From positions 103,062-167,061 of the IMG/VR virus record IMGVR_UViG_3300020576_001727: a DNA stretch of 64,000 nt, one strand, 5' to 3'. The notes below the pieces were generated by a model, which had not been told where the DNA came from, did not search any database, and saw only the letters and a program-made list of their open reading frames with translations. Shown piece by piece: positions 23,267 through 41,572 of the stretch. Position numbers and translations under genes: made by a program. Source of the stretch: a virus. Its lineage: Duplodnaviria > Heunggongvirae > Uroviricota > Caudoviricetes. Position 1 is the first letter of the stretch, and each line of letters begins with the position of its first letter.

Positions 23267-23350
23267 GAACCGATGACCCAAGAGGCGAAGGGCGCTGGCT
23301 TTTAACCAGTTAAACAAACACCGTGGGTTCGAGTCCCACTCGGTTCACCA
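23267..23350 (+). tRNA. tRNA-like, 84 nt, anticodon candidate UUU; irregular D-arm/long variable region
   Basis: acceptor gaaccga/tcggttc, T-arm gtgggttcgagtcccac, CCA. Confidence 0.4.
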
Positions 23351-23399: not shown

Positions 23400-23481
23400 G
23401 GACATGAAGTGTAAACGTCTTCGGAAGCGAAGTTGCCTCTTAAGCAACGCACAAATGGTTCGACTCCATTCATGTCCTCCA
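23400..23481 (+). tRNA. tRNA-like, anticodon candidate CUU; enlarged D region
   Basis: acceptor ggacatg/catgtcc, AC stem gttgc/gcaac loop ctcttaa, T-loop ttcgact, CCA. Confidence 0.4.
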
Positions 23482-25918: not shown

Positions 25919-25994
25919 GTCTGATAAGCTAACTTAGTAGAAGCGCCTGCCTGAAGAGCAGGAGGATACGGGGCGGAACCGTGATCAGACACCA
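25919..25994 (+). tRNA. tRNA-Phe (GAA), noncanonical T-loop
   Basis: acceptor gtctgat/atcagac, AC stem cctgc/gcagg loop ctgaaga, CCA. Confidence 0.5.
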
Positions 25995-28505: not shown

Positions 28506-28883
28506 ATGGCTTATGTGTCGAAGGAAACCAAGGCGGCTGTTATGGTTGCTCTTGCTGCAACCGGCGCTAAGAAGGAAGGTTTTTCTTGGACGGTCGGCGT
28601 TCGCGACCACATGACCTTGCAAGTCAAGATTTGGAAGTATCCGACTTGGTTCAAGCTGAATCAGAAGTGGAGCGAATACGACTCCGAATATGGAATTGAT
28701 CTGAACACGTATCATCCTCATATGTATTTCGATGATACGCCGGAAGGGCAGAAGTCGCTTGAATGGATTAAGAAGTTCATCGCGGCAATGAACACTGGCA
28801 ATTGGGACAAGTCGGACGTGATGACTGATTATTTCAATGTTGGGTTTTTCGTGTCATTAAGGTTGTTTCCTAATAAGAAATGA
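28506..28883 (+). CDS. hypothetical protein
   Basis: ORF track; promoter TTGACA at 28449. Confidence 0.4.
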   Translation: MAYVSKETKAAVMVALAATGAKKEGFSWTVGVRDHMTLQVKIWKYPTWFKLNQKWSEYDSEYGIDLNTYHPHMYFDDTPEGQKSLEWIKKFIAAMNTGNWDKSDVMTDYFNVGFFVSLRLFPNKK

Positions 28884-29498
28884 TTTACAATTTTCGTTAT
28901 GAAAACGAGATAATATGTTTGCGGCGACCGATTTATCACAATATTTACATTTAATTTTGGGTTTCGGTCTCCCTTTTTGTTTTGTGCTAGAAGCAATTTT
29001 GATTTTTTCGATAGTTTCTGGCGAATGTGTCTTTCCATAAAATGGATTTTTTTCACCTATACATTTACCTTTTCTGTTTTGTGATATTAGTAATTTAGAT
29101 TCTTCTGTGTGGGGCTTTCTTTTTATGCCTAATTTGGAGAGACTCATATTTCTTCTGGTTTTTTCTGAAAAAGGTTTTCTCTTTCTGCCGATATATGAAA
29201 TGGATAATTCTTTTTTTAATTGTTCGTATTGACGTGCCGTAATTTTAATTTTATTTTTACGCATAGTAAATTGCCAAGCCGCATATGCAAGTTTTTCTTT
29301 ATATGGAGCATCGACCATTCTTATCAGAAGCAGATGGCATAAAAAGTGTTGACGGGCAGATAAACGTATGATATTATTGTCATCGTTAGAACCTCCCATG
29401 CATTTTGGAATAATATGATGATTTTCAACATATATGTCATTTTGGGGTTTTGAAATTATATCAAAATACCATTTGGTATATTTGTTATCTTTAAACAT
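28857..29498 (-). CDS. HNH homing endonuclease with NUMOD3 repeats
   Basis: NHHIIPKCMGGSNDDNNIIRL; repeated GRKRKPFSEKT/GIKRKPHTEES. Confidence 0.65.
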   Translation of the reverse strand: MFKDNKYTKWYFDIISKPQNDIYVENHHIIPKCMGGSNDDNNIIRLSARQHFLCHLLLIRMVDAPYKEKLAYAAWQFTMRKNKIKITARQYEQLKKELSISYIGRKRKPFSEKTRRNMSLSKLGIKRKPHTEESKLLISQNRKGKCIGEKNPFYGKTHSPETIEKIKIASSTKQKGRPKPKIKCKYCDKSVAANILSRFHNENCKSFLIRKQP

Positions 29499-29554: not shown

Positions 29555-29650
29555 ATGGCACATGAACGAAAAAATCGCCCGCGAAAGGGAAGACGTAAGG
29601 TCGGCTCTGCCAAGCGTCTTGCTCGACGCAAGCGCAAACAGAGAAAGTGA
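29555..29650 (+). CDS. 31-aa highly basic peptide (MAHERKNRPRKGRRKVGSAKRLARRKRKQRK)
   Basis: RBS ggaagg 6 nt upstream; 17 of 31 residues R/K. Confidence 0.35.
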   Translation: MAHERKNRPRKGRRKVGSAKRLARRKRKQRK

Positions 29651-29694: not shown

Positions 29695-29775
29695 TGCCTC
29701 TGTATCAGTCCCGGCTTCGAACCGGTCGTTAAAGCTGTAATGGAGTATGGGGGTTCGAATCCCTTCAGGGGCACC
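29695..29775 (+). tRNA. noncanonical tRNA-like, anticodon-like loop UCG (Arg), canonical acceptor/T-arm, apparent D-arm missing/rearranged
   Basis: acceptor gcctctg/caggggc, hairpin ccgg-cttcgaa-ccgg, T-arm gggggttcgaatccctt, CCA; paralog at 29995. Confidence 0.4.
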
Positions 29776-29780
29776 AATTT

Positions 29781-29855
29781 TGCTTTGTAAGCATTGACGG
29801 TGATGCAGGAGTTTCGTAAACTTCAGAGGATGGTTCGATCCCGTCACAAAGCACC
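29781..29855 (+). tRNA. tRNA-Thr (CGU)
   Basis: acceptor gctttgt/acaaagc, D-stem gcat/atgc, AC stem ggagt/acttc loop ttcgtaa, CCA. Confidence 0.5.
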
Positions 29856-29912
29856 AAATTTTTCTTGACAACGTTCAAAAACACATATATACTAAACCAG
29901 AATTAGAAATTT

Positions 29913-29987
29913 GCGGGTATAACTCAAAGGTAGAGTGTCAGCCTTCCAAGCTGTATGTTGTCGGTTCGAGTCCGATTGCCCGCTCCA
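29913..29987 (+). tRNA. tRNA-Gly (UCC), second copy
   Basis: acceptor gcgggta/tgcccgc, D-stem actc/gagt, loop cttccaa, T-loop ttcgagt, CCA. Confidence 0.5.
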
Positions 29988-29994
29988 GTTTAAT

Positions 29995-30075
29995 GCTTCC
30001 GTATCGCCACCGGCTTCTACCCGGTCGTTAACAGCGTAATGGAGTATGGGGGTTCGAGTCCCTCCGGGAGCACCA
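29995..30075 (+). tRNA. noncanonical tRNA-like, anticodon-like loop UCU (Arg), paralog of 29695
   Basis: acceptor gcttccg/cgggagc covaries with paralog; hairpin accgg-cttctac-ccggt. Confidence 0.4.
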
Positions 30076-30754: not shown

Positions 30755-31357
30755 TTGCTATACACGATCTATAAAATTACGAATAATATTAACGGTAAAA
30801 TTTATATTGGTAAACATCAAACTAAAAATTTAGATGATGGGTATTTTGGTTCTGGTAAAAATCTAAAACGTGCGATATCGAAATACGGTATAGAGAACTT
30901 TAACAAAGAAATTCTTTATGTATTCGACAACGAGTCGGATATGAATGTTAAGGAACGTGAATTAGTAACCGAAGAATTTTGTAAACGTCTAGATACCTAC
31001 AATATTTGTGAAGGTGGTAAAGGCGGATTTGGTTATATAAATTCGATTGTATCAAATGAAGATAAATCTAGGTTTGGAAAATTTGGCGCGCAAAAATATG
31101 TCGAACGTTTAAAATCAGACAAAAATTTTGCAGATTTGAGAATTTCTTCTTTCAAAGAAAGTATTCAAAAGTTAAGAGACTCTGGTTGGAAATCGTCCGA
31201 ATCTCATATGAAGTTGATGACTGAAAAAGCAGCCGAAAAAACACGTAACATGATATGGATTACAGACGGTGTTGCTAATAAAAAAATACTAAAAACTAAT
31301 AAAATTCCTCCAAATTTTTATAGAGGAAGAATTGTAAATAAACGTCAATCGTCATGA
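30755..31357 (+). CDS. GIY-YIG homing endonuclease (TTG start)
   Basis: [22 protein letters not shown]...YFGSG...NxE. Confidence 0.65.
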
Positions 31358-32641: not shown

Positions 32642-33196
32642 TTGTTGACAACATCAAATGTCACATATATAGTAACACAGAATATGAAACTCTGCGAAAC
32701 TTGTCATAATCAACATGATGGTAATTTTGGTTCCGGAAGATTTTGTTGCAAAAAATGCGCTTGTTCATATAGCACCAAAAATTCTAGACATGAGATTAAT
32801 CAGAAGGTCAAAAATGCTTTAATTGGTCGAAAAGCTTCGATTGAAACGATAGACAAGATGAAAGAATCTTGGAAATCGAGAAAATCAAGCAATTCCTATT
32901 ATAGGCGTTCGCAAACGAATATTGAAGATATTTGTGTAGTCGATTCTATCTATACTACTAAATATGTTAAAGAAAGATTATTTCGCGACAATCTAAAAAA
33001 ATATGAATGTGAAGAATGTGGATTATATGAGTGGCGAAATAAGCCAATAACATTACAACTTCATCACAGAAATGGTAAAAATAAAGATCATAGATTAGAA
33101 AATCTGCAAATCTTATGTCCAATGTGTCATTCTCAAACGGACAATTATGCAGGAAGAAATAGAAGGCTTCGTATTTTAACTGGAAAGATGCATTGA
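32642..33196 (+). CDS. HNH homing endonuclease
   Basis: LQLHHRNGKNKDHRLENLQILCPMCH; N-terminal Zn ribbons; own promoter TTGACA-N17-TATAGT upstream. Confidence 0.65.
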   Translation: MLTTSNVTYIVTQNMKLCETCHNQHDGNFGSGRFCCKKCACSYSTKNSRHEINQKVKNALIGRKASIETIDKMKESWKSRKSSNSYYRRSQTNIEDICVVDSIYTTKYVKERLFRDNLKKYECEECGLYEWRNKPITLQLHHRNGKNKDHRLENLQILCPMCHSQTDNYAGRNRRLRILTGKMH

Positions 33197-33401: not shown

Positions 33402-33470
33402 AGTCATATCGTCTAGGGCGGAAGGACGCCCCTGTTGAAGGGGGAAACGTGGGTTCGAATCCCATTATGT
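33402..33470 (+). tRNA. tRNA-like (D-arm cgtc/gacg, T-arm gtgggttcgaatcccat) whose acceptor halves do not pair; possible pseudo-tRNA
   Basis: hand fold. Confidence 0.3.
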
Positions 33471-33862
33471 TTAGCTTTGCTTTAAAATTTCGGATTAAGT
33501 TCCCGTCAACGCACACTAGCGACGTTAACTTTGGGTGCCGTGTTTTGTTGCTTCCTCCCGTTAAGAAAGCAATCCTTTTGATTATTTTCGGCGAAAAATA
33601 ATCGGTCATGCGTGAGTGTCTACAATTCTTACGCCGTATGGTAGCACGGATGCACCATGTCAATGCCAGTCAGACATACCCAAAAATGTGATATAATTGG
33701 AAAAAAATATCAATCTGGCAACCTATTAAATGCTTGATTTGACTATAAAATCAGGTATAATACAGTAAACAGGAACGATGAATCAGATAGTTTTCGTCCT
33801 ATCGTTCAAAGCGTCGTAAAGTCCGCCCGGTCTGTTCAAAACGGTGGCGGGTTAGAATTTAT

Positions 33863-37479: not shown

Positions 37480-37570
37480 GGTTCCATAGCATAAAGGTAA
37501 TGCGCCGAGCTTATACCTCGTTACTCCTGATTAGAGGGTGATACAGGTTCGAATCCTGTTGGAACTACCA
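37480..37570 (+). tRNA. type II-length tRNA (88 nt), anticodon candidate UAU; identity uncertain
   Basis: acceptor ggttcca/tggaact, D-stem gcat/atgc, 21-nt variable arm, T-arm acaggttcgaatcctgt, CCA then T9 run. Confidence 0.45.
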
Positions 37571-40377: not shown

Positions 40378-41167
40378 TTAAAAATAGAAACGATCTAGAC
40401 AAGAGAGTAAAGCAATGGCTAGAGACTCGCCCTAGAAAGTAACTTAAAGCCTCAAAGAGGCAACTTAGATAGAGATATTAGATATAGTATGTTAAAATGA
40501 AACTTGGTTTACCGATGGAGCGAAGTTGGGCAATGTCAATAAGTCCCGCCAGCATAGAAGTCGGACCAACGAGAGAAGAACGTTAACTCGCTAAATCAAC
40601 GTGACAGTCCGGAGAGACGGACACTTTAATTCAATGAAAACAAGAACAGTCCTGTCCTGAAAATAGCTCTAAGACATGATAATATTGGATATCTGCTTGT
40701 TTTCATTTAATTAAAGATTGGCGTGTATGGCGTCGTCAGAATAAGGTTGGCAACAACCCCAACGGGAAAAATCTCACGATATCCCACCTAGCAATAGGGT
40801 CAACCATGCAAGCCTCCCCGGTCTGGTAACAGATGTTTCGCTGATAAGAGCGGCGGAACGAACGAGGAAGCCGATGTAGTGGAAAGAACCTTCGTTTAAG
40901 CGCCCGCAAGGGAAACGCAAGCGAAGGGAAAGTAACGGGTGGTGCCGACTTCACTACAAAACCAATCGGTCATTCGGGACGGGAAAGGGTAGGGTATTTG
41001 TCCGAGTCTTACAAACAAGGGCTTATATCCAGTCTGATAGGTCGGTGGTAACGAAACGCTGGTCTTGAAAGACCGCTAAGTAGTCGGTAGACAAAAGGCA
41101 TGAAGGCGTGTTGTATTTTGGTTCCCAAAAGGAATTGAAGCAACAGGGGCAGCACGTCTCGGTGAGT

Positions 41168-41237
41168 TAGCAAGTAGCTCAATGGTAGGGCAATCGCATT
41201 TGAAGCGATGACTGTTGGTTCAATTCCAACCTTCATA
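41168..41237 (+). tRNA. tRNA-like element (UUG anticodon arm atcgc-atttgaa-gcgat, T-arm gttggttcaattccaac) without pairing acceptor
   Basis: hand fold. Confidence 0.3.
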
Positions 41238-41572
41238 TAAAAAAGCAAAGACTGTCCCAGTTGATGGTGAAAATGGTTTAATACTACACTCGAAAGAGAA
41301 TGTAGTTACAAAAAGTCCGCAAGACAATTTGTATTTGTTTTAGAAATTTCGTAACAACTTAGCGGTTGTGAATGGTTCGCAAGATCAGCGGGAAAGAAGA
41401 AACAGAGTAGCTATCAGCGATACGAGAAACGCGACTCGTCAAACGCAACCATGATGTTGTAGAAAGATACCGAAAGGATTTTTCTGGATATGGAAGGAAA
41501 GCAGTCCGCAAAACTGCCATAATCTTCTTAAAGCAGCATTGGTAAACGTGTAATCTCAACGTTTTACAATAG

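What the first reader, a model, noticed from the sequence alone, without database searches (positions are those of the whole stretch)
29695..30075. Two paralogous Arg-like tRNA elements with non-canonical architecture supported by compensatory changes
Elements 29695..29775 and 29995..30075 share a perfect acceptor stem + GGTTCGA(A/G)TCC T-arm + CCA. Between them the acceptor pairs covary (C3-G70/U3-A70; U6-A67/C6-G67). Only 7 nt separate the acceptor from an anticodon-like hairpin (loops CTTCGAA and CTTCTAC, i.e. UCG and UCU, both Arg). A D-arm-like sequence (agcNgtaatggagtat) sits after that hairpin. A 3-bp helix (cag/ctg vs cgc/gcg) also covaries across the hairpin. Conserved, covarying structure argues against decay; these look like D-arm-rearranged or permuted tRNAs.
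Basis: seen in the sequence. Interest (0 to 1): 0.7.

Follow-up and report, generated by a model that had tools for sequence, protein, structure and literature searches.

The report
Phage arginine tRNAs with rearranged core
The two elements are real members of a large family of phage arginine tRNAs that standard tRNA finders mostly miss, in which the D-arm is not a hairpin: its two strands pair around the anticodon arm and its loop lies just before the T-arm, an arrangement I could not find described in the literature I could search.

Summary
Confirmed. E1 (29696-29776, anticodon UCG) and E2 (29995-30075, UCU) sit in the tRNA array of a distant T4-like phage. ARAGORN misses both. The Rfam tRNA model reaches its threshold only by deleting the D-arm.

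They are not isolated oddities. I collected 144 distinct relatives from IMG/VR and from cultured phages (phi92, Felixounavirus, 121Q, Klebsiella KpS8, Streptomyces Yaboi and Mildred21, Rhodococcus Trina).

All share one layout: acceptor, UAU, 3-nt strand, N, anticodon arm, 3-12 nt linker, complementary 3-nt strand, UAAYGGA, N2-3 AU, T-arm, acceptor. The 3-bp helix (P2) around the anticodon arm shows all four Watson-Crick pair types with no unpaired cell in its two outer pairs. The rival long-variable-hairpin fold fails.

All but three members carry Arg anticodons (UCU, ACG, UCG, CCU, CCG) and have A after GG, matching A20, the ArgRS determinant. Two Ile(UAU) members and one Val(UAC) member have U there.

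The A15/U48-like positions vary together. Rearranged and canonical Arg tRNAs with the same anticodon almost never share a locus.

Best reading: working elongator tRNAs whose D-domain connectivity is locally permuted but whose tertiary core is kept. No expression or charging data exist. I found no description in the literature I could search.

The parts
29696..29776 (+). E1: rearranged-core tRNA-Arg(UCG), including discriminator A29773 and encoded CCA 29774-29776
   Evidence: Family model R1 scores 72.2 bits. Rfam tRNA scores 29.3 bits with the D-arm deleted. ARAGORN does not call it. It lies 5 nt upstream of tRNA-Thr (29782).
29696..29702 (+). E1 acceptor 5' strand GCCTCTG, pairing with 29766-29772 CAGGGGC
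   Evidence: Read from the sequence. All 7 acceptor pairs covary across the family.
29703..29705 (+). E1 junction UAU (U8, A9, then U)
   Evidence: T8 and A9 are invariant and T10 is at least 90% conserved in A1. TAT occurs in 127 of 139 members.
29706..29708 (+). E1 P2 5' strand CAG, inferred equivalent of D-stem positions 23-25
   Evidence: Pairs with 29735-29737 CTG. In the family, pair 1 is CG84/GC16/AU12/UA9 and pair 2 is GC42/CG32/UA32/AU15, with none unpaired.
29710..29726 (+). E1 anticodon arm CCCGG-CTTCGAA-CCGGT; anticodon TCG at 29717-29719; the top pair is a C.U mismatch
   Evidence: Read from the sequence. Stem pairs covary. The family's anticodons are almost all Arg.
29727..29734 (+). 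E1 linker CGTTAAAG, inferred equivalent of positions 44-45 plus extra nt
   Evidence: Linker length varies across the family: 3-6, 8, 11 or 12 nt, with one 0-nt parse. Its pairing with the following TAATG is not conserved (helix 5, 56.8% paired).
29735..29737 (+). E1 P2 3' strand CTG, inferred equivalent of D-stem positions 10-12
   Evidence: See the P2 5' strand entry.
29738..29748 (+). E1 open D-loop TAATGGA plus GTAT, read as U13 A14 A15 U16 G18 G19 A20 .. A U48 (numbering inferred)
   Evidence: TAA, GG and the final AT are invariant or nearly so. A follows GG in 132 of 133 Arg members. The third base of TAA varies with the base before the T-stem.
29749..29765 (+). E1 T-arm GGGGG-TTCGAAT-CCCTT
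   Evidence: Read from the sequence. The T-loop is the canonical GTTCRA type. Stem pairs covary.
29995..30075 (+). E2: rearranged-core tRNA-Arg(UCU), including discriminator A30072 and CCA 30073-30075
   Evidence: R1 scores 75.8 bits. Rfam tRNA scores 29.7 bits with the D-arm deleted. ARAGORN does not call it. It lies 7 nt after tRNA-Gly (ends 29987) and 9 nt before tRNA-Cys (30085).
30005..30007 (+). E2 P2 5' strand CGC
   Evidence: Pairs with 30034-30036 GCG. Relative to E1, two of the three pairs are changed on both sides.
30009..30025 (+). E2 anticodon arm ACCGG-CTTCTAC-CCGGT; anticodon TCT at 30016-30018
   Evidence: Read from the sequence. The stem has 5 Watson-Crick pairs.
30034..30036 (+). 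E2 P2 3' strand GCG
30037..30047 (+). E2 open D-loop TAATGGA plus GTAT
   Evidence: Identical to E1. Family conservation is shown.
30048..30064 (+). E2 T-arm GGGGG-TTCGAGT-CCCTC
   Evidence: Read from the sequence.

Best explanation
E1 and E2 are working elongator tRNAs, tRNA-Arg(UCG) and tRNA-Arg(UCU), of a phage-borne tRNA lineage with a rearranged core.

Shown:
- The acceptor stem, T-arm and anticodon arm are standard.
- No D hairpin lies between the acceptor stem and the anticodon arm.
- A covarying 3-bp helix (P2) closes around the anticodon arm.
- A conserved single-stranded UAAYGGA..AU joins P2 to the T-stem.

Inferred:
- P2 is the D-stem with its strands in swapped order. The strand after U8-A9-U plays 22/23-25. 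The strand after the anticodon arm plays 10-12/13 and runs on into A14, A15, G18, G19 and A20.
- P2 stacks on the anticodon stem. This gives about 10 layers (5 + 1 + 3-4), the same as D-stem plus anticodon stem.
- G18 and G19 dock on the T-loop. U8-A14 and A15-U48 form as usual, giving a normal L-shape.
- The three new joints (9 to 22, about 45 to 10, 21 to 48) link residues that are neighbours in the canonical fold.
- The RNA is cut out of the polycistronic tRNA transcript by the host's tRNA-processing enzymes and charged by host ArgRS through A20, C35, U/G36 and A/G73.
- It reads AGA/AGG and CGA/CGG, about 63% of the Arg codons in the window's ORFs, in place of canonical isoacceptors.
- A partial tandem duplication of the D-to-variable segment followed by two deletions would produce exactly this order.
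For: - Helix P2 is 99.7% paired on a MAFFT alignment that was not fitted to any structure. Its two outer pairs show all four Watson-Crick types and no unpaired cell. Sliding the partner by 1-3 columns drops overall pairing to 37-45%. A model-based alignment gives the same result.
- In an all-against-all mutual-information scan, the P2 pairs rank 2nd, 10th and 16th, among the known stems.
- My selection filter never required P2.
- Of 144 distinct members, all but three carry Arg anticodons: UCU 90, ACG 19, UCG 16, CCU 8, and CCG in 2.
- The base after GG is A in 132 of 133 Arg members. It is U in the two Ile(UAU) members and the one Val(UAC) member. In bacteria A20 is the main ArgRS determinant, alongside C35, U/G36 and A/G73, and U20 is listed as an Ile determinant (PMC9976931).
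- T8, A9, the TAA, the GG, and the A and T before the T-stem are invariant or nearly so.
- When the position-15 equivalent is A, the position-48 equivalent is U in 136 of 136. When it is G, the partner is C in 5 distinct members from at least 4 sub-families, G in 3 and U in 1. The search pattern left position 48 free.
- Acceptor, anticodon and T stems all covary. CCA is encoded in 67 of 121 members, and the discriminator is A or G in 100 of 121.
- A canonical Arg(UCU) is present in 2 of 123 loci that have a rearranged UCU copy, against 15 of 40 loci without one (Fisher p = 6e-9). For ACG the counts are 0 of 22 against 36 of 141 (p = 0.004). Multiple rearranged copies in one locus always carry different anticodons.
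- In the window the only canonical Arg tRNA is ACG. AGA is the commonest Arg codon at 29%, and CGA is 20%.
- E1 and E2 lie 5-9 nt from neighbouring tRNA genes on the same strand.
- One member carries an extra hairpin between GGA and the T-stem, where the variable region would sit under this mapping (L152:10185-10274).
Against: - There are no transcript, processing, modification or aminoacylation data.
- The three-dimensional mapping is my inference from remembered tRNA tertiary contacts and was not modelled.
- Single-sequence folding does not favour the structure (z-scores -0.65 and -0.13).
- RNAalifold does not predict P2 on energy grounds.
- The inner P2 pair is C.A in 17 members and G.G in 11.
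- The top anticodon-stem pair is mismatched in about a third of members, including E1.
- 20 of 121 members have discriminator U, which is outside the A/G73 rule.
- The loci are not phylogenetically independent, so the Fisher tests overstate significance.
- The acceptor, T and anticodon helices were part of my selection filter.
Confidence: 0.8

Rival explanations
1. It is a D-arm-less tRNA with a long structured variable arm. This is how the Rfam model aligns it: a short connector replaces the D-arm, and CGUUA/UAAUG forms a variable hairpin whose loop happens to complement the connector.
For: The Rfam tRNA alignment deletes the D-arm and inserts 19 nt in the variable region. In E1, E2 and the CGTTAA sub-family, CGTTA can pair with TAATG.
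Against: Across the family that hairpin is only 56.8% paired. Three of its five pairs show no change on both sides, and the other two show 1 and 7 such cells. P2, which it would have to leave unpaired, is 99.7% paired. Sub-families with 3-5 nt linkers cannot form the hairpin at all. With no residue between the two helices, both cannot form at once as a pseudoknot (inference).
Confidence: 0.03
2. P2 merely lengthens the anticodon arm of a floppy tRNA without a D-arm, as in mitochondria. The GG-containing strand makes no canonical core or elbow contacts, and the RNA works, if at all, as a flexible non-L-shaped adaptor.
For: The secondary structure on its own is a three-way junction. Armless tRNAs do function in nematode mitochondria (PMC7609411). 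No 3-D data exist here.
Against: T8, A9, TAA, GG and the terminal AT are invariant or nearly so in a strand that would otherwise be unconstrained. The 15/48-like positions vary together. The base after GG tracks amino-acid identity. The hosts use ordinary bacterial EF-Tu and ribosomes, not mitochondrial factors adapted to armless tRNAs (established knowledge).
Confidence: 0.08
3. It is a tRNA-like RNA that is not used in decoding. It could be a decoy or sponge for tRNA-targeting defence nucleases, a primer, or a regulator.
For: Phage tRNAs are known to counter tRNA-cleaving defences such as PARIS (PMC11464382, abstract). There is no direct proof of charging here.
Against: The full Arg identity set, the encoded CCA and the standard 7/5 acceptor-T branch are conserved. 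The family has diversified over five Arg anticodons plus Ile and Val, with matching changes at position 20. It is mutually exclusive with the canonical isoacceptor of the same anticodon, which is what a replacement would show and an add-on decoy would not.
Confidence: 0.07
4. They are decayed tRNA pseudogenes, or precursors that are cut and re-ligated into a canonical tRNA.
For: Standard finders reject them. GenBank annotators labelled them tRNA-OTHER, Val(aac), Phe(gaa), Leu(taa), or left them unannotated.
Against: There are 144 distinct sequences with compensatory changes in four helices. The family spans phages of Actinobacteria and Enterobacteria. Members are 74-83 nt, with no spare sequence for an intron. 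Conversion to a canonical order would need three cuts and three ligations, with no known bacterial machinery and no bulge-helix-bulge motifs (inference).
Confidence: 0.02

Closest known systems
Canonical bacterial and phage tRNA-Arg (Rfam RF00005 tRNA)
   Same: Both have a 7-bp acceptor stem, a 5-bp T-stem with a GTTCRA loop, and a 5-bp/7-nt anticodon arm with U33, A37 and Arg anticodons. Both have U8, A9, A14, A15/U48, G18, G19, A20 and A/G73, often an encoded CCA, a place in phage tRNA arrays, and a similar total length.
   Different: No D hairpin lies between the acceptor stem and the anticodon arm. The two D-stem strands flank the anticodon arm, and the D-loop is an open strand leading into the T-stem. 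This makes a three-way rather than a four-way junction. The Rfam score sits just at threshold, and ARAGORN missed 178 of 184 copies.
[quoted passage not shown]
   Same: Both have a short connector instead of a D hairpin directly after the acceptor stem.
   Different: The mitochondrial tRNAs have lost the D-stem and the G18G19 elbow contacts, and they rely on adapted mitochondrial factors. Here a covarying D-stem equivalent and the GG motif are kept in a new order, and the RNA must work with ordinary bacterial machinery.
Circularly permuted tRNA genes of Cyanidioschyzon merolae (from memory) and of Archaea (PMC3218864, abstract seen)
   Same: In both, the gene order of tRNA segments differs from the canonical order.
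   Different: In those genes the 3' half precedes the 5' half, and processing restores a canonical mature tRNA. Here the acceptor ends are at the ends of the gene, only an internal segment (10-21) is transposed, and the mature RNA is expected to keep the rearranged connectivity.
Class II tRNAs (long variable arm) and allo-tRNAs with 8/4 or 9/3 acceptor-T branches (PMC5389517)
   Same: These are also natural departures from the standard cloverleaf, and some are found in phages. Extra nucleotides lie between the anticodon arm and the T-arm.
   Different: Those tRNAs keep a normal D hairpin and vary the variable arm or the acceptor/T lengths. Here the 7/5 branch is standard, the extra nucleotides are not a conserved hairpin, and the D-arm topology is what changes.

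Membership tests
tRNA (Rfam RF00005, canonical cloverleaf) | Score at or above the curated gathering threshold of the tRNA covariance model | tested here: met
   29.3 bits (E1) and 29.7 bits (E2) against a gathering score of 29. The threshold is reached only with the D-arm positions deleted.
tRNA (Rfam RF00005, canonical cloverleaf) | D stem-loop hairpin between position 9 and the anticodon arm | tested here: not met
   Only 4 nt are aligned in place of the 15 D-arm positions. RNAalifold predicts no D-arm. ARAGORN makes no call.
tRNA (Rfam RF00005, canonical cloverleaf) | 7-bp acceptor stem, 5-bp T-stem with a T54-Psi55-C56-type loop, and a 5-bp anticodon stem with a 7-nt loop | tested here: met
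   Seen in the sequence. Across the family these helices are 98.8-99.4%, 99.1-99.2% and 90.8% paired, with covariation. These helices were partly required by my filter.
tRNA (Rfam RF00005, canonical cloverleaf) | Conserved tertiary-core nucleotides U8, A14, R15/Y48, G18 and G19 | tested here: inconclusive
   All are present and conserved, and the 15/48-like positions vary together. They occur in a different linear order, and the contacts themselves were not tested.
tRNA (functional definition) | The RNA is expressed, 5'/3' processed, aminoacylated and used on the ribosome | not testable with these tools
   Only indirect evidence is available: position inside a tRNA array and mutual exclusion with canonical isoacceptors.
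Bacterial arginine identity set (PMC9976931) | A20, C35, U/G36 and A/G73 | tested here: met
   E1 has A after GG, anticodon UCG and discriminator A. E2 has A after GG, anticodon UCU and discriminator A. In the family, A20 occurs in 132 of 133 Arg members and C35 in all of them, and A/G73 occurs in 100 of 121 members. Assigning 'position 20' rests on my mapping.
D-arm-lacking (mitochondrial-type) tRNAs | Loss of the D-stem and of the D-loop G18G19 elbow contacts | tested here: not met
   A covarying 3-bp D-stem equivalent and a near-invariant GG (137 of 139 parsed members) are retained.
Circularly permuted tRNA genes | The 3' half is encoded upstream of the 5' half, so the acceptor termini are internal and must be joined and processed | tested here: not met
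   The acceptor 5' and 3' strands are at the two ends of the element, and CCA follows the 3' end.
Class II tRNA (long variable arm) | A conserved, covarying variable stem-loop between the anticodon arm and the T-arm, together with a normal D-arm | tested here: not met
   The candidate hairpin is 56.8% paired with almost no covariation, and there is no D hairpin.

The most novel reading that the evidence does not exclude
The rearranged connectivity may be an adaptation, not a neutral accident. It would keep the surfaces read by ArgRS, EF-Tu, RNase P and the ribosome. It would remove the canonical D-arm/anticodon-stem geometry, and perhaps host modification sites, that tRNA-targeting nucleases need, whether host defence nucleases or a phage's own host-shutoff enzymes. 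Phages would then carry cleavage-resistant replacement Arg tRNAs, and occasionally Ile or Val ones. This would explain why the fold is essentially confined to phages and why it displaces the canonical isoacceptor.
Probability: 0.2. Interest if true: 0.9.

Novelty: new variant of a known kind. Interest (0 to 1): 0.8.

Why it matters
If these RNAs are charged and used, they are a natural topological isomer of tRNA. They would have the same L-shape and identity elements as a normal tRNA, built with a different strand path through the core.

That would show that the cloverleaf order is not required by bacterial ArgRS, EF-Tu, RNase P or the ribosome. It would also offer a new scaffold for engineered or orthogonal tRNAs.

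It reveals an annotation gap too. ARAGORN missed 97% of copies. In GenBank records of well-known phages the gene is unannotated or mislabelled as Val, Phe, Leu or OTHER. Phage tRNA repertoires and codon-supply analyses therefore undercount Arg decoders. In this window the two elements are the only encoded tRNAs whose anticodons match AGA/AGG and CGG.

The family is present in easily grown phages (phi92, FelixO1-like, Streptomyces BE-cluster). Every prediction can therefore be tested directly.

Tried and rejected
- **Canonical cloverleaf.** ARAGORN makes no call, and Rfam matches only with the D-arm deleted.
- **Single-sequence MFE folding.** It is uninformative, giving different folds for E1 and E2 with z-scores near 0.
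- **Long variable hairpin CGUUA/UAAUG.** Covariation rejects it.
- **Pseudoknot of both helices.** No spacer residue separates them, so it is sterically implausible. This is inference only.
- **RNAalifold.** It recovers the acceptor, anticodon and T stems but not the 3-bp P2, so P2 rests on covariation rather than energy.
- **First exact pattern (GTAATGGAGTATGGGGGTTCGA).** It found nothing in IMG/VR. Degenerate patterns were needed.
- **Close relatives of the window phage.** None turned up in the phage collection with the 1.6-kb tRNA-array segment around E1/E2 or with the DNA polymerase.
- **Cellular origin.** About 6 true hits turned up in 185,579 species genomes. All are MAG contigs, four of them with 7-27 tRNA genes within 8 kb. 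There was no hit in 5,426 complete E. coli genomes.
- **Literature.** Ten full-text searches found no description. This included a search for sequence strings and a check of the 2020 review of non-canonical tRNAs. One 2023 catalogue of viral structured RNAs lists a motif (DNAVirus_2961) that sometimes overlaps ARAGORN tRNA-Arg calls.
- **Homologues of another odd tRNA-like element at 23400-23478.** None were found.
Full report
**1. The observation**

The window carries a dense tRNA island. ARAGORN tRNAs between 21.3 and 41.2 kb, and there is a GOLLD RNA at 41103-41562. The two elements lie inside this island on the + strand.

E2 spans 29995-30075. They are separated from neighbouring tRNA genes by only 5-9 nt.

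- Perfect 7-bp acceptor stems, with compensatory differences at pairs 3-70 and 6-67.
- A discriminator A followed by CCA.
- A canonical T-arm.
- A 7-nt connector, then a hairpin whose 7-nt loop reads CTTCGAA (UCG) in E1 and CTTCTAC (UCU) in E2.
- A 3-nt complement on either side of that hairpin: CAG/CTG in E1 and CGC/GCG in E2.
- The sequence TAATGGAGTAT in front of the T-stem.

ARAGORN reports neither element. The Rfam tRNA model scores them 29.3 and 29.7 bits against a threshold of 29. It does so only by aligning 4 nt in place of the 15 D-arm positions and inserting 19 nt into the variable region. Minimum-energy folding of the single sequences is uninformative.

**2. A large family**

A degenerate pattern built on the D-loop-like motif plus the T-loop retrieved clear homologues from IMG/VR. 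A BLAST search of one of them against GenBank phages found 280 records, 268 of which cover at least 80% of the query. The carriers include:
- Streptomyces phages: Yaboi, Genie2, Mildred21, Daubenski, Bmoc and TunaTartare.
- Rhodococcus phage Trina.
- E. coli phages phi92 and 121Q, and Felixounaviruses.
- Klebsiella phages KpS8 and Riker.

In these records the gene is either unannotated or labelled tRNA-Val(aac), tRNA-Phe(gaa), tRNA-Leu(taa) or tRNA-OTHER.

Two further patterns raised the set to 121 distinct sequences. A covariance model built from them (R1) raised it to 144.

In the window R1 finds exactly E2 (75.8 bits) and E1 (72.2 bits). The best canonical tRNA, Arg(ACG) at 33165, scores 31.2 bits.

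The family is essentially viral. The same pattern gave about 80 true members in IMG/VR. It gave only about 6 in one genome each of 185,579 bacterial and archaeal species. All six are MAG contigs, four of them with 7-27 tRNA genes within 8 kb. The phi92-type copy has no match in 5,426 complete E. coli genomes.

The window itself comes from an uncultured, distant T4-like phage. Its gp43-type DNA polymerase is 44% identical to those of cyanomyophages. Homing-endonuclease ORFs lie on both sides of the E1/E2 tRNA cluster, about 200 and 680 nt away.

**3. Secondary structure**

All members share one layout:

acceptor(7) - U A U - P2 5' strand(3) - N - anticodon stem(5), loop(7), stem(5) - linker (3-12 nt) - P2 3' strand(3) - U A A (N) Y G G A - N2-3 A U - T-stem(5), T-loop(7), T-stem(5) - acceptor(7) - discriminator.

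I counted pairs on a MAFFT alignment that knows nothing about structure (A1). P2 is 99.7% paired:

| P2 pair | Pair types | Unpaired |
|---|---|---|
| 1 | CG 84, GC 16, AU 12, UA 9 | 0 |
| 2 | GC 42, CG 32, UA 32, AU 15 | 0 |

Sliding the 3' partners by 1-3 columns drops overall pairing from 89% to 37-45%. The model-based alignment gives the same picture.

Parsing by sequence anchors shows at least 20 different complementary P2 combinations. The third, innermost pair is Watson-Crick in 109 of 139 members, C.A in one sub-family (17) and G.G in another (11).

In an all-against-all mutual-information scan with average-product correction, the three P2 pairs rank 2nd, 10th and 16th, interleaved with the pairs of the acceptor, anticodon and T stems. 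My selection filter never required P2.

The competing fold is a long variable hairpin, CGUUA/UAAUG. It is only 56.8% paired, shows almost no compensatory change, and cannot form in sub-families with short linkers.

RNAalifold recovers the acceptor, anticodon and T stems and predicts no D-arm. It does not call the 3-bp P2 on energy grounds.

**4. Identity**

The hairpin loop reads an arginine anticodon in all but three members:

| Anticodon | Distinct members |
|---|---|
| UCU | 90 |
| ACG | 19 |
| UCG | 16 |
| CCU | 8 |
| CCG | 2 |

The base directly after the conserved GG is A in 132 of 133 Arg members. The three exceptions to Arg identity are two Ile(UAU) members and one Val(UAC) member. They keep the whole architecture, including a complementary P2, but have U at that position.

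In bacteria the arginine identity set is A20 in the D-loop, C35, U/G36 and A/G73, with A20 the strongest determinant for E. coli ArgRS. U20 is listed among the Ile determinants (PMC9976931). Reading GG-A as G18-G19-A20 therefore fits both the rule and its exceptions.

The discriminator is A or G in 100 of 121 members, and CCA is encoded in 67 of 121.

**5. Evidence for a canonical tertiary core**

T8, A9, the TAA after P2, the GG, and the A and T immediately before the T-stem are invariant or nearly so.

I number the strand after P2 as U13 A14 A15 Y16 G18 G19 A20 ... A21 U48. Under that numbering the partners of the universal contacts are all present: U8-A14, A15-U48 (the Levitt pair), G18-Psi55 and G19-C56.

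The 15/48 assignment can be tested. With A at position 15, position 48 is U in 136 of 136 members. A search for G15 variants that left position 48 free gave these results:
- C48 in five distinct members from at least four sub-families (L237, L241, L250, L104, L105).
- G48 in three members (L240, L248, L249).
- U48 in one member (L238, with L245 near-identical).

From memory, G15-C48 and A15-U48 are the two standard Levitt pairs, and G15-G48 is known from E. coli tRNA-Cys.

One member has a hairpin inserted between GGA and the T-stem. That is where the variable region falls under this mapping (L152:10185-10274).

**6. How it most likely works**

*Shown:* the helices, the conserved strand, the identity signals and the genomic behaviour described above.

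*Inferred:*
- P2 is the D-stem with its strands exchanged in linear order. The strand that follows U8-A9-U runs into N26 and the anticodon stem, as 22/23-25 do in a normal tRNA. The strand that follows the anticodon arm runs into A14, as 10-13 do.
- P2 plus N26 plus the anticodon stem gives 9-10 stacked layers. This matches the D-stem/26/anticodon-stem stack of a normal tRNA, so the distance from anticodon to elbow is preserved.
- The three new joints connect residues that, from my memory of the yeast tRNA-Phe structure, are neighbours in the canonical core. The joint 9 to 22 fits because A9 lies on the 12-23 pair. The joint from about 45 to 10 fits because 45 lies on the 10-25 pair. The joint 21 to 48 fits because the 8-14-21 layer stacks on 15-48.
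- The molecule would thus be an L-shaped tRNA with a different strand path. It should be recognisable by RNase P and EF-Tu, because the 7/5 acceptor-T branch is intact. ArgRS should recognise it through A20, C35, U/G36 and A/G73, and the ribosome through the intact elbow and anticodon arm.
- A partial tandem duplication of the D-to-variable segment followed by two deletions would generate exactly this order.

**7. Functional support from genomics**

Rearranged and canonical Arg tRNAs with the same anticodon avoid each other:

| Anticodon | Canonical copy present, loci with a rearranged copy | Canonical copy present, loci without one | Fisher p |
|---|---|---|---|
| UCU | 2 of 123 | 15 of 40 | 6e-9 |
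| ACG | 0 of 22 | 36 of 141 | 0.004 |

Loci with several rearranged copies always carry different anticodons. This is the behaviour of a replacement isoacceptor, not of a pseudogene or an add-on decoy. The loci are not phylogenetically independent and are only partial genomes, so the p-values are optimistic.

In the window the only canonical Arg tRNA is ACG. E1 and E2 supply UCG and UCU. In the window's long ORFs AGA is the commonest Arg codon (29%). AGA, AGG, CGA and CGG together make up 63% of Arg codons.

**8. What remains open**

- Nothing here shows transcription, processing, modification or charging.
- The 3-D argument is not modelled.
- About a third of members, including E1 (C.U), have a mismatched top pair in the anticodon stem.
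- Two sub-families have a non-Watson-Crick inner P2 pair.
- 17% of members have discriminator U.
- Why the fold is nearly confined to Arg and to phages is unknown. Neutral spread through gene exchange among phages is one possibility, and homing-endonuclease ORFs lie on both sides of the E1/E2 tRNA cluster in this window. Escape from tRNA-targeting nucleases or from host modification enzymes is another. The data do not decide between them.

**9. Comparison with known systems, and novelty**

- **Canonical tRNA.** It works like a tRNA-Arg and passes the Rfam threshold, but it fails the defining D-hairpin feature of the cloverleaf.
- **Mitochondrial tRNAs without a D-arm.** It is not one of these, because the D-stem equivalent and GG are retained.
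- **Circularly permuted tRNA genes.** It is not one of these, because the acceptor ends are terminal.
- **Class II tRNAs and allo-tRNAs.** It is not one of these, because it has no conserved variable hairpin and its 7/5 branch is standard.

Ten full-text searches, a search for sequence strings, and the 2020 review of non-canonical tRNAs turned up no description. A 2023 catalogue of viral structured RNAs mentions a motif that sometimes overlaps ARAGORN tRNA-Arg calls. It may be an uninterpreted earlier sighting, but I could not check it. The library I searched lacks most subscription journals, so prior publication cannot be excluded.

**10. Verdict**

I rate this a new variant of a known kind, with high interest. 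It is a widespread alternative tRNA architecture, supported by strong covariation, present in cultured model phages and largely missed by a standard tRNA finder (ARAGORN overlapped 6 of 184 copies).

Noticed in passing
window 23400-23478 (+), followed by CCA: This is another tRNA-like element that neither ARAGORN nor Rfam calls at threshold; R1 gives it 20.3 bits. It has acceptor GGACATG/CATGTCC, T-loop TTCGACT and anticodon loop CTCTTAA (CUU, Lys). The predicted helix GUGU/GCAC encloses both a small hairpin (UUCG-GAAG-CGAA) and the anticodon arm. A pattern search found no homologues.
   Followed up: partly
L092:1057-1133, L072:2892-2967, L088:10637-10713: These members of the same rearranged architecture carry non-Arg anticodons: Ile UAU twice and Val UAC once. 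They have GGU instead of GGA, so the fold is not strictly limited to arginine.
   Followed up: partly
L018 2501-2579 (Yaboi), L023 1501-1576 (Mildred21), L026 1495-1576 (121Q), L021 2497-2575 (Trina), L019 about 2495-2576 (phi92): GenBank records label family members as tRNA-Val(aac), tRNA-Phe(gaa), tRNA-Leu(taa) or tRNA-OTHER, or leave them unannotated. All of them read Arg anticodons under the family structure.
   Followed up: yes
window 25919-25991 (+): Rfam calls a tRNA here at 36.9 bits that ARAGORN misses. Its anticodon loop is CTGAAGA (GAA, Phe), its T-loop is the aberrant GCGGAAC, and it ends in CCA.
   Followed up: no
window 33402-33473 and 37480-37570 (+): ARAGORN reports a 'tRNA-???' with a 2-nt anticodon at 33402. 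It also reports a 91-nt tRNA-Ile(UAU) with a long extra arm at 37480. The 84-nt tRNA-Lys(UUU) at 23267 also has an unusually long variable region. This phage's tRNA set is rich in non-standard forms.
   Followed up: no
window 41103-41562 (+): A GOLLD RNA scores 214.6 bits against the full-length model and has a tRNA-Gln(UUG) gene (41168-41238) embedded in it, at the 3' edge of the tRNA island.
   Followed up: no
window 29555-29650 (+): A 31-codon ORF encodes an extremely basic peptide (MAHERKNRPRKGRRKVGSAKRLARRKRKQRK, 10 Arg). It is preceded by GGAAGG and ends 45 nt upstream of E1. It was read by eye and may or may not be a real gene.
   Followed up: no
window 28857-29498 (-) and 30755-31357 (+): Homing-endonuclease ORFs lie on either side of the tRNA cluster that contains E1 and E2 (PHROG 655 and the GIY-YIG/Seg-like PHROG 314). 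Endonuclease genes also abut family members in Mildred21, TunaTartare and SP22.
   Followed up: no
L014/L017, L101, L056, L112, L049, L042; L211-L234 (e.g. L212, L217): A different recurrent viral tRNA-like class turned up as by-catch. It has the form '...GGG(T)TAC...CAC/CGCATTG-TA(A/G)-(T/C)GGAG(A/G)GAT' directly before a canonical T-arm. It is not a member of the Arg family, and I did not work out its structure.
   Followed up: no
L152:10185-10274 (also L167:11835-11924): This 90-nt family member with anticodon ACG carries an extra hairpin (GTATC-GTA-GATAC) between GGA and the T-stem. Under the proposed mapping this is a variable-arm-like insertion.
   Followed up: no
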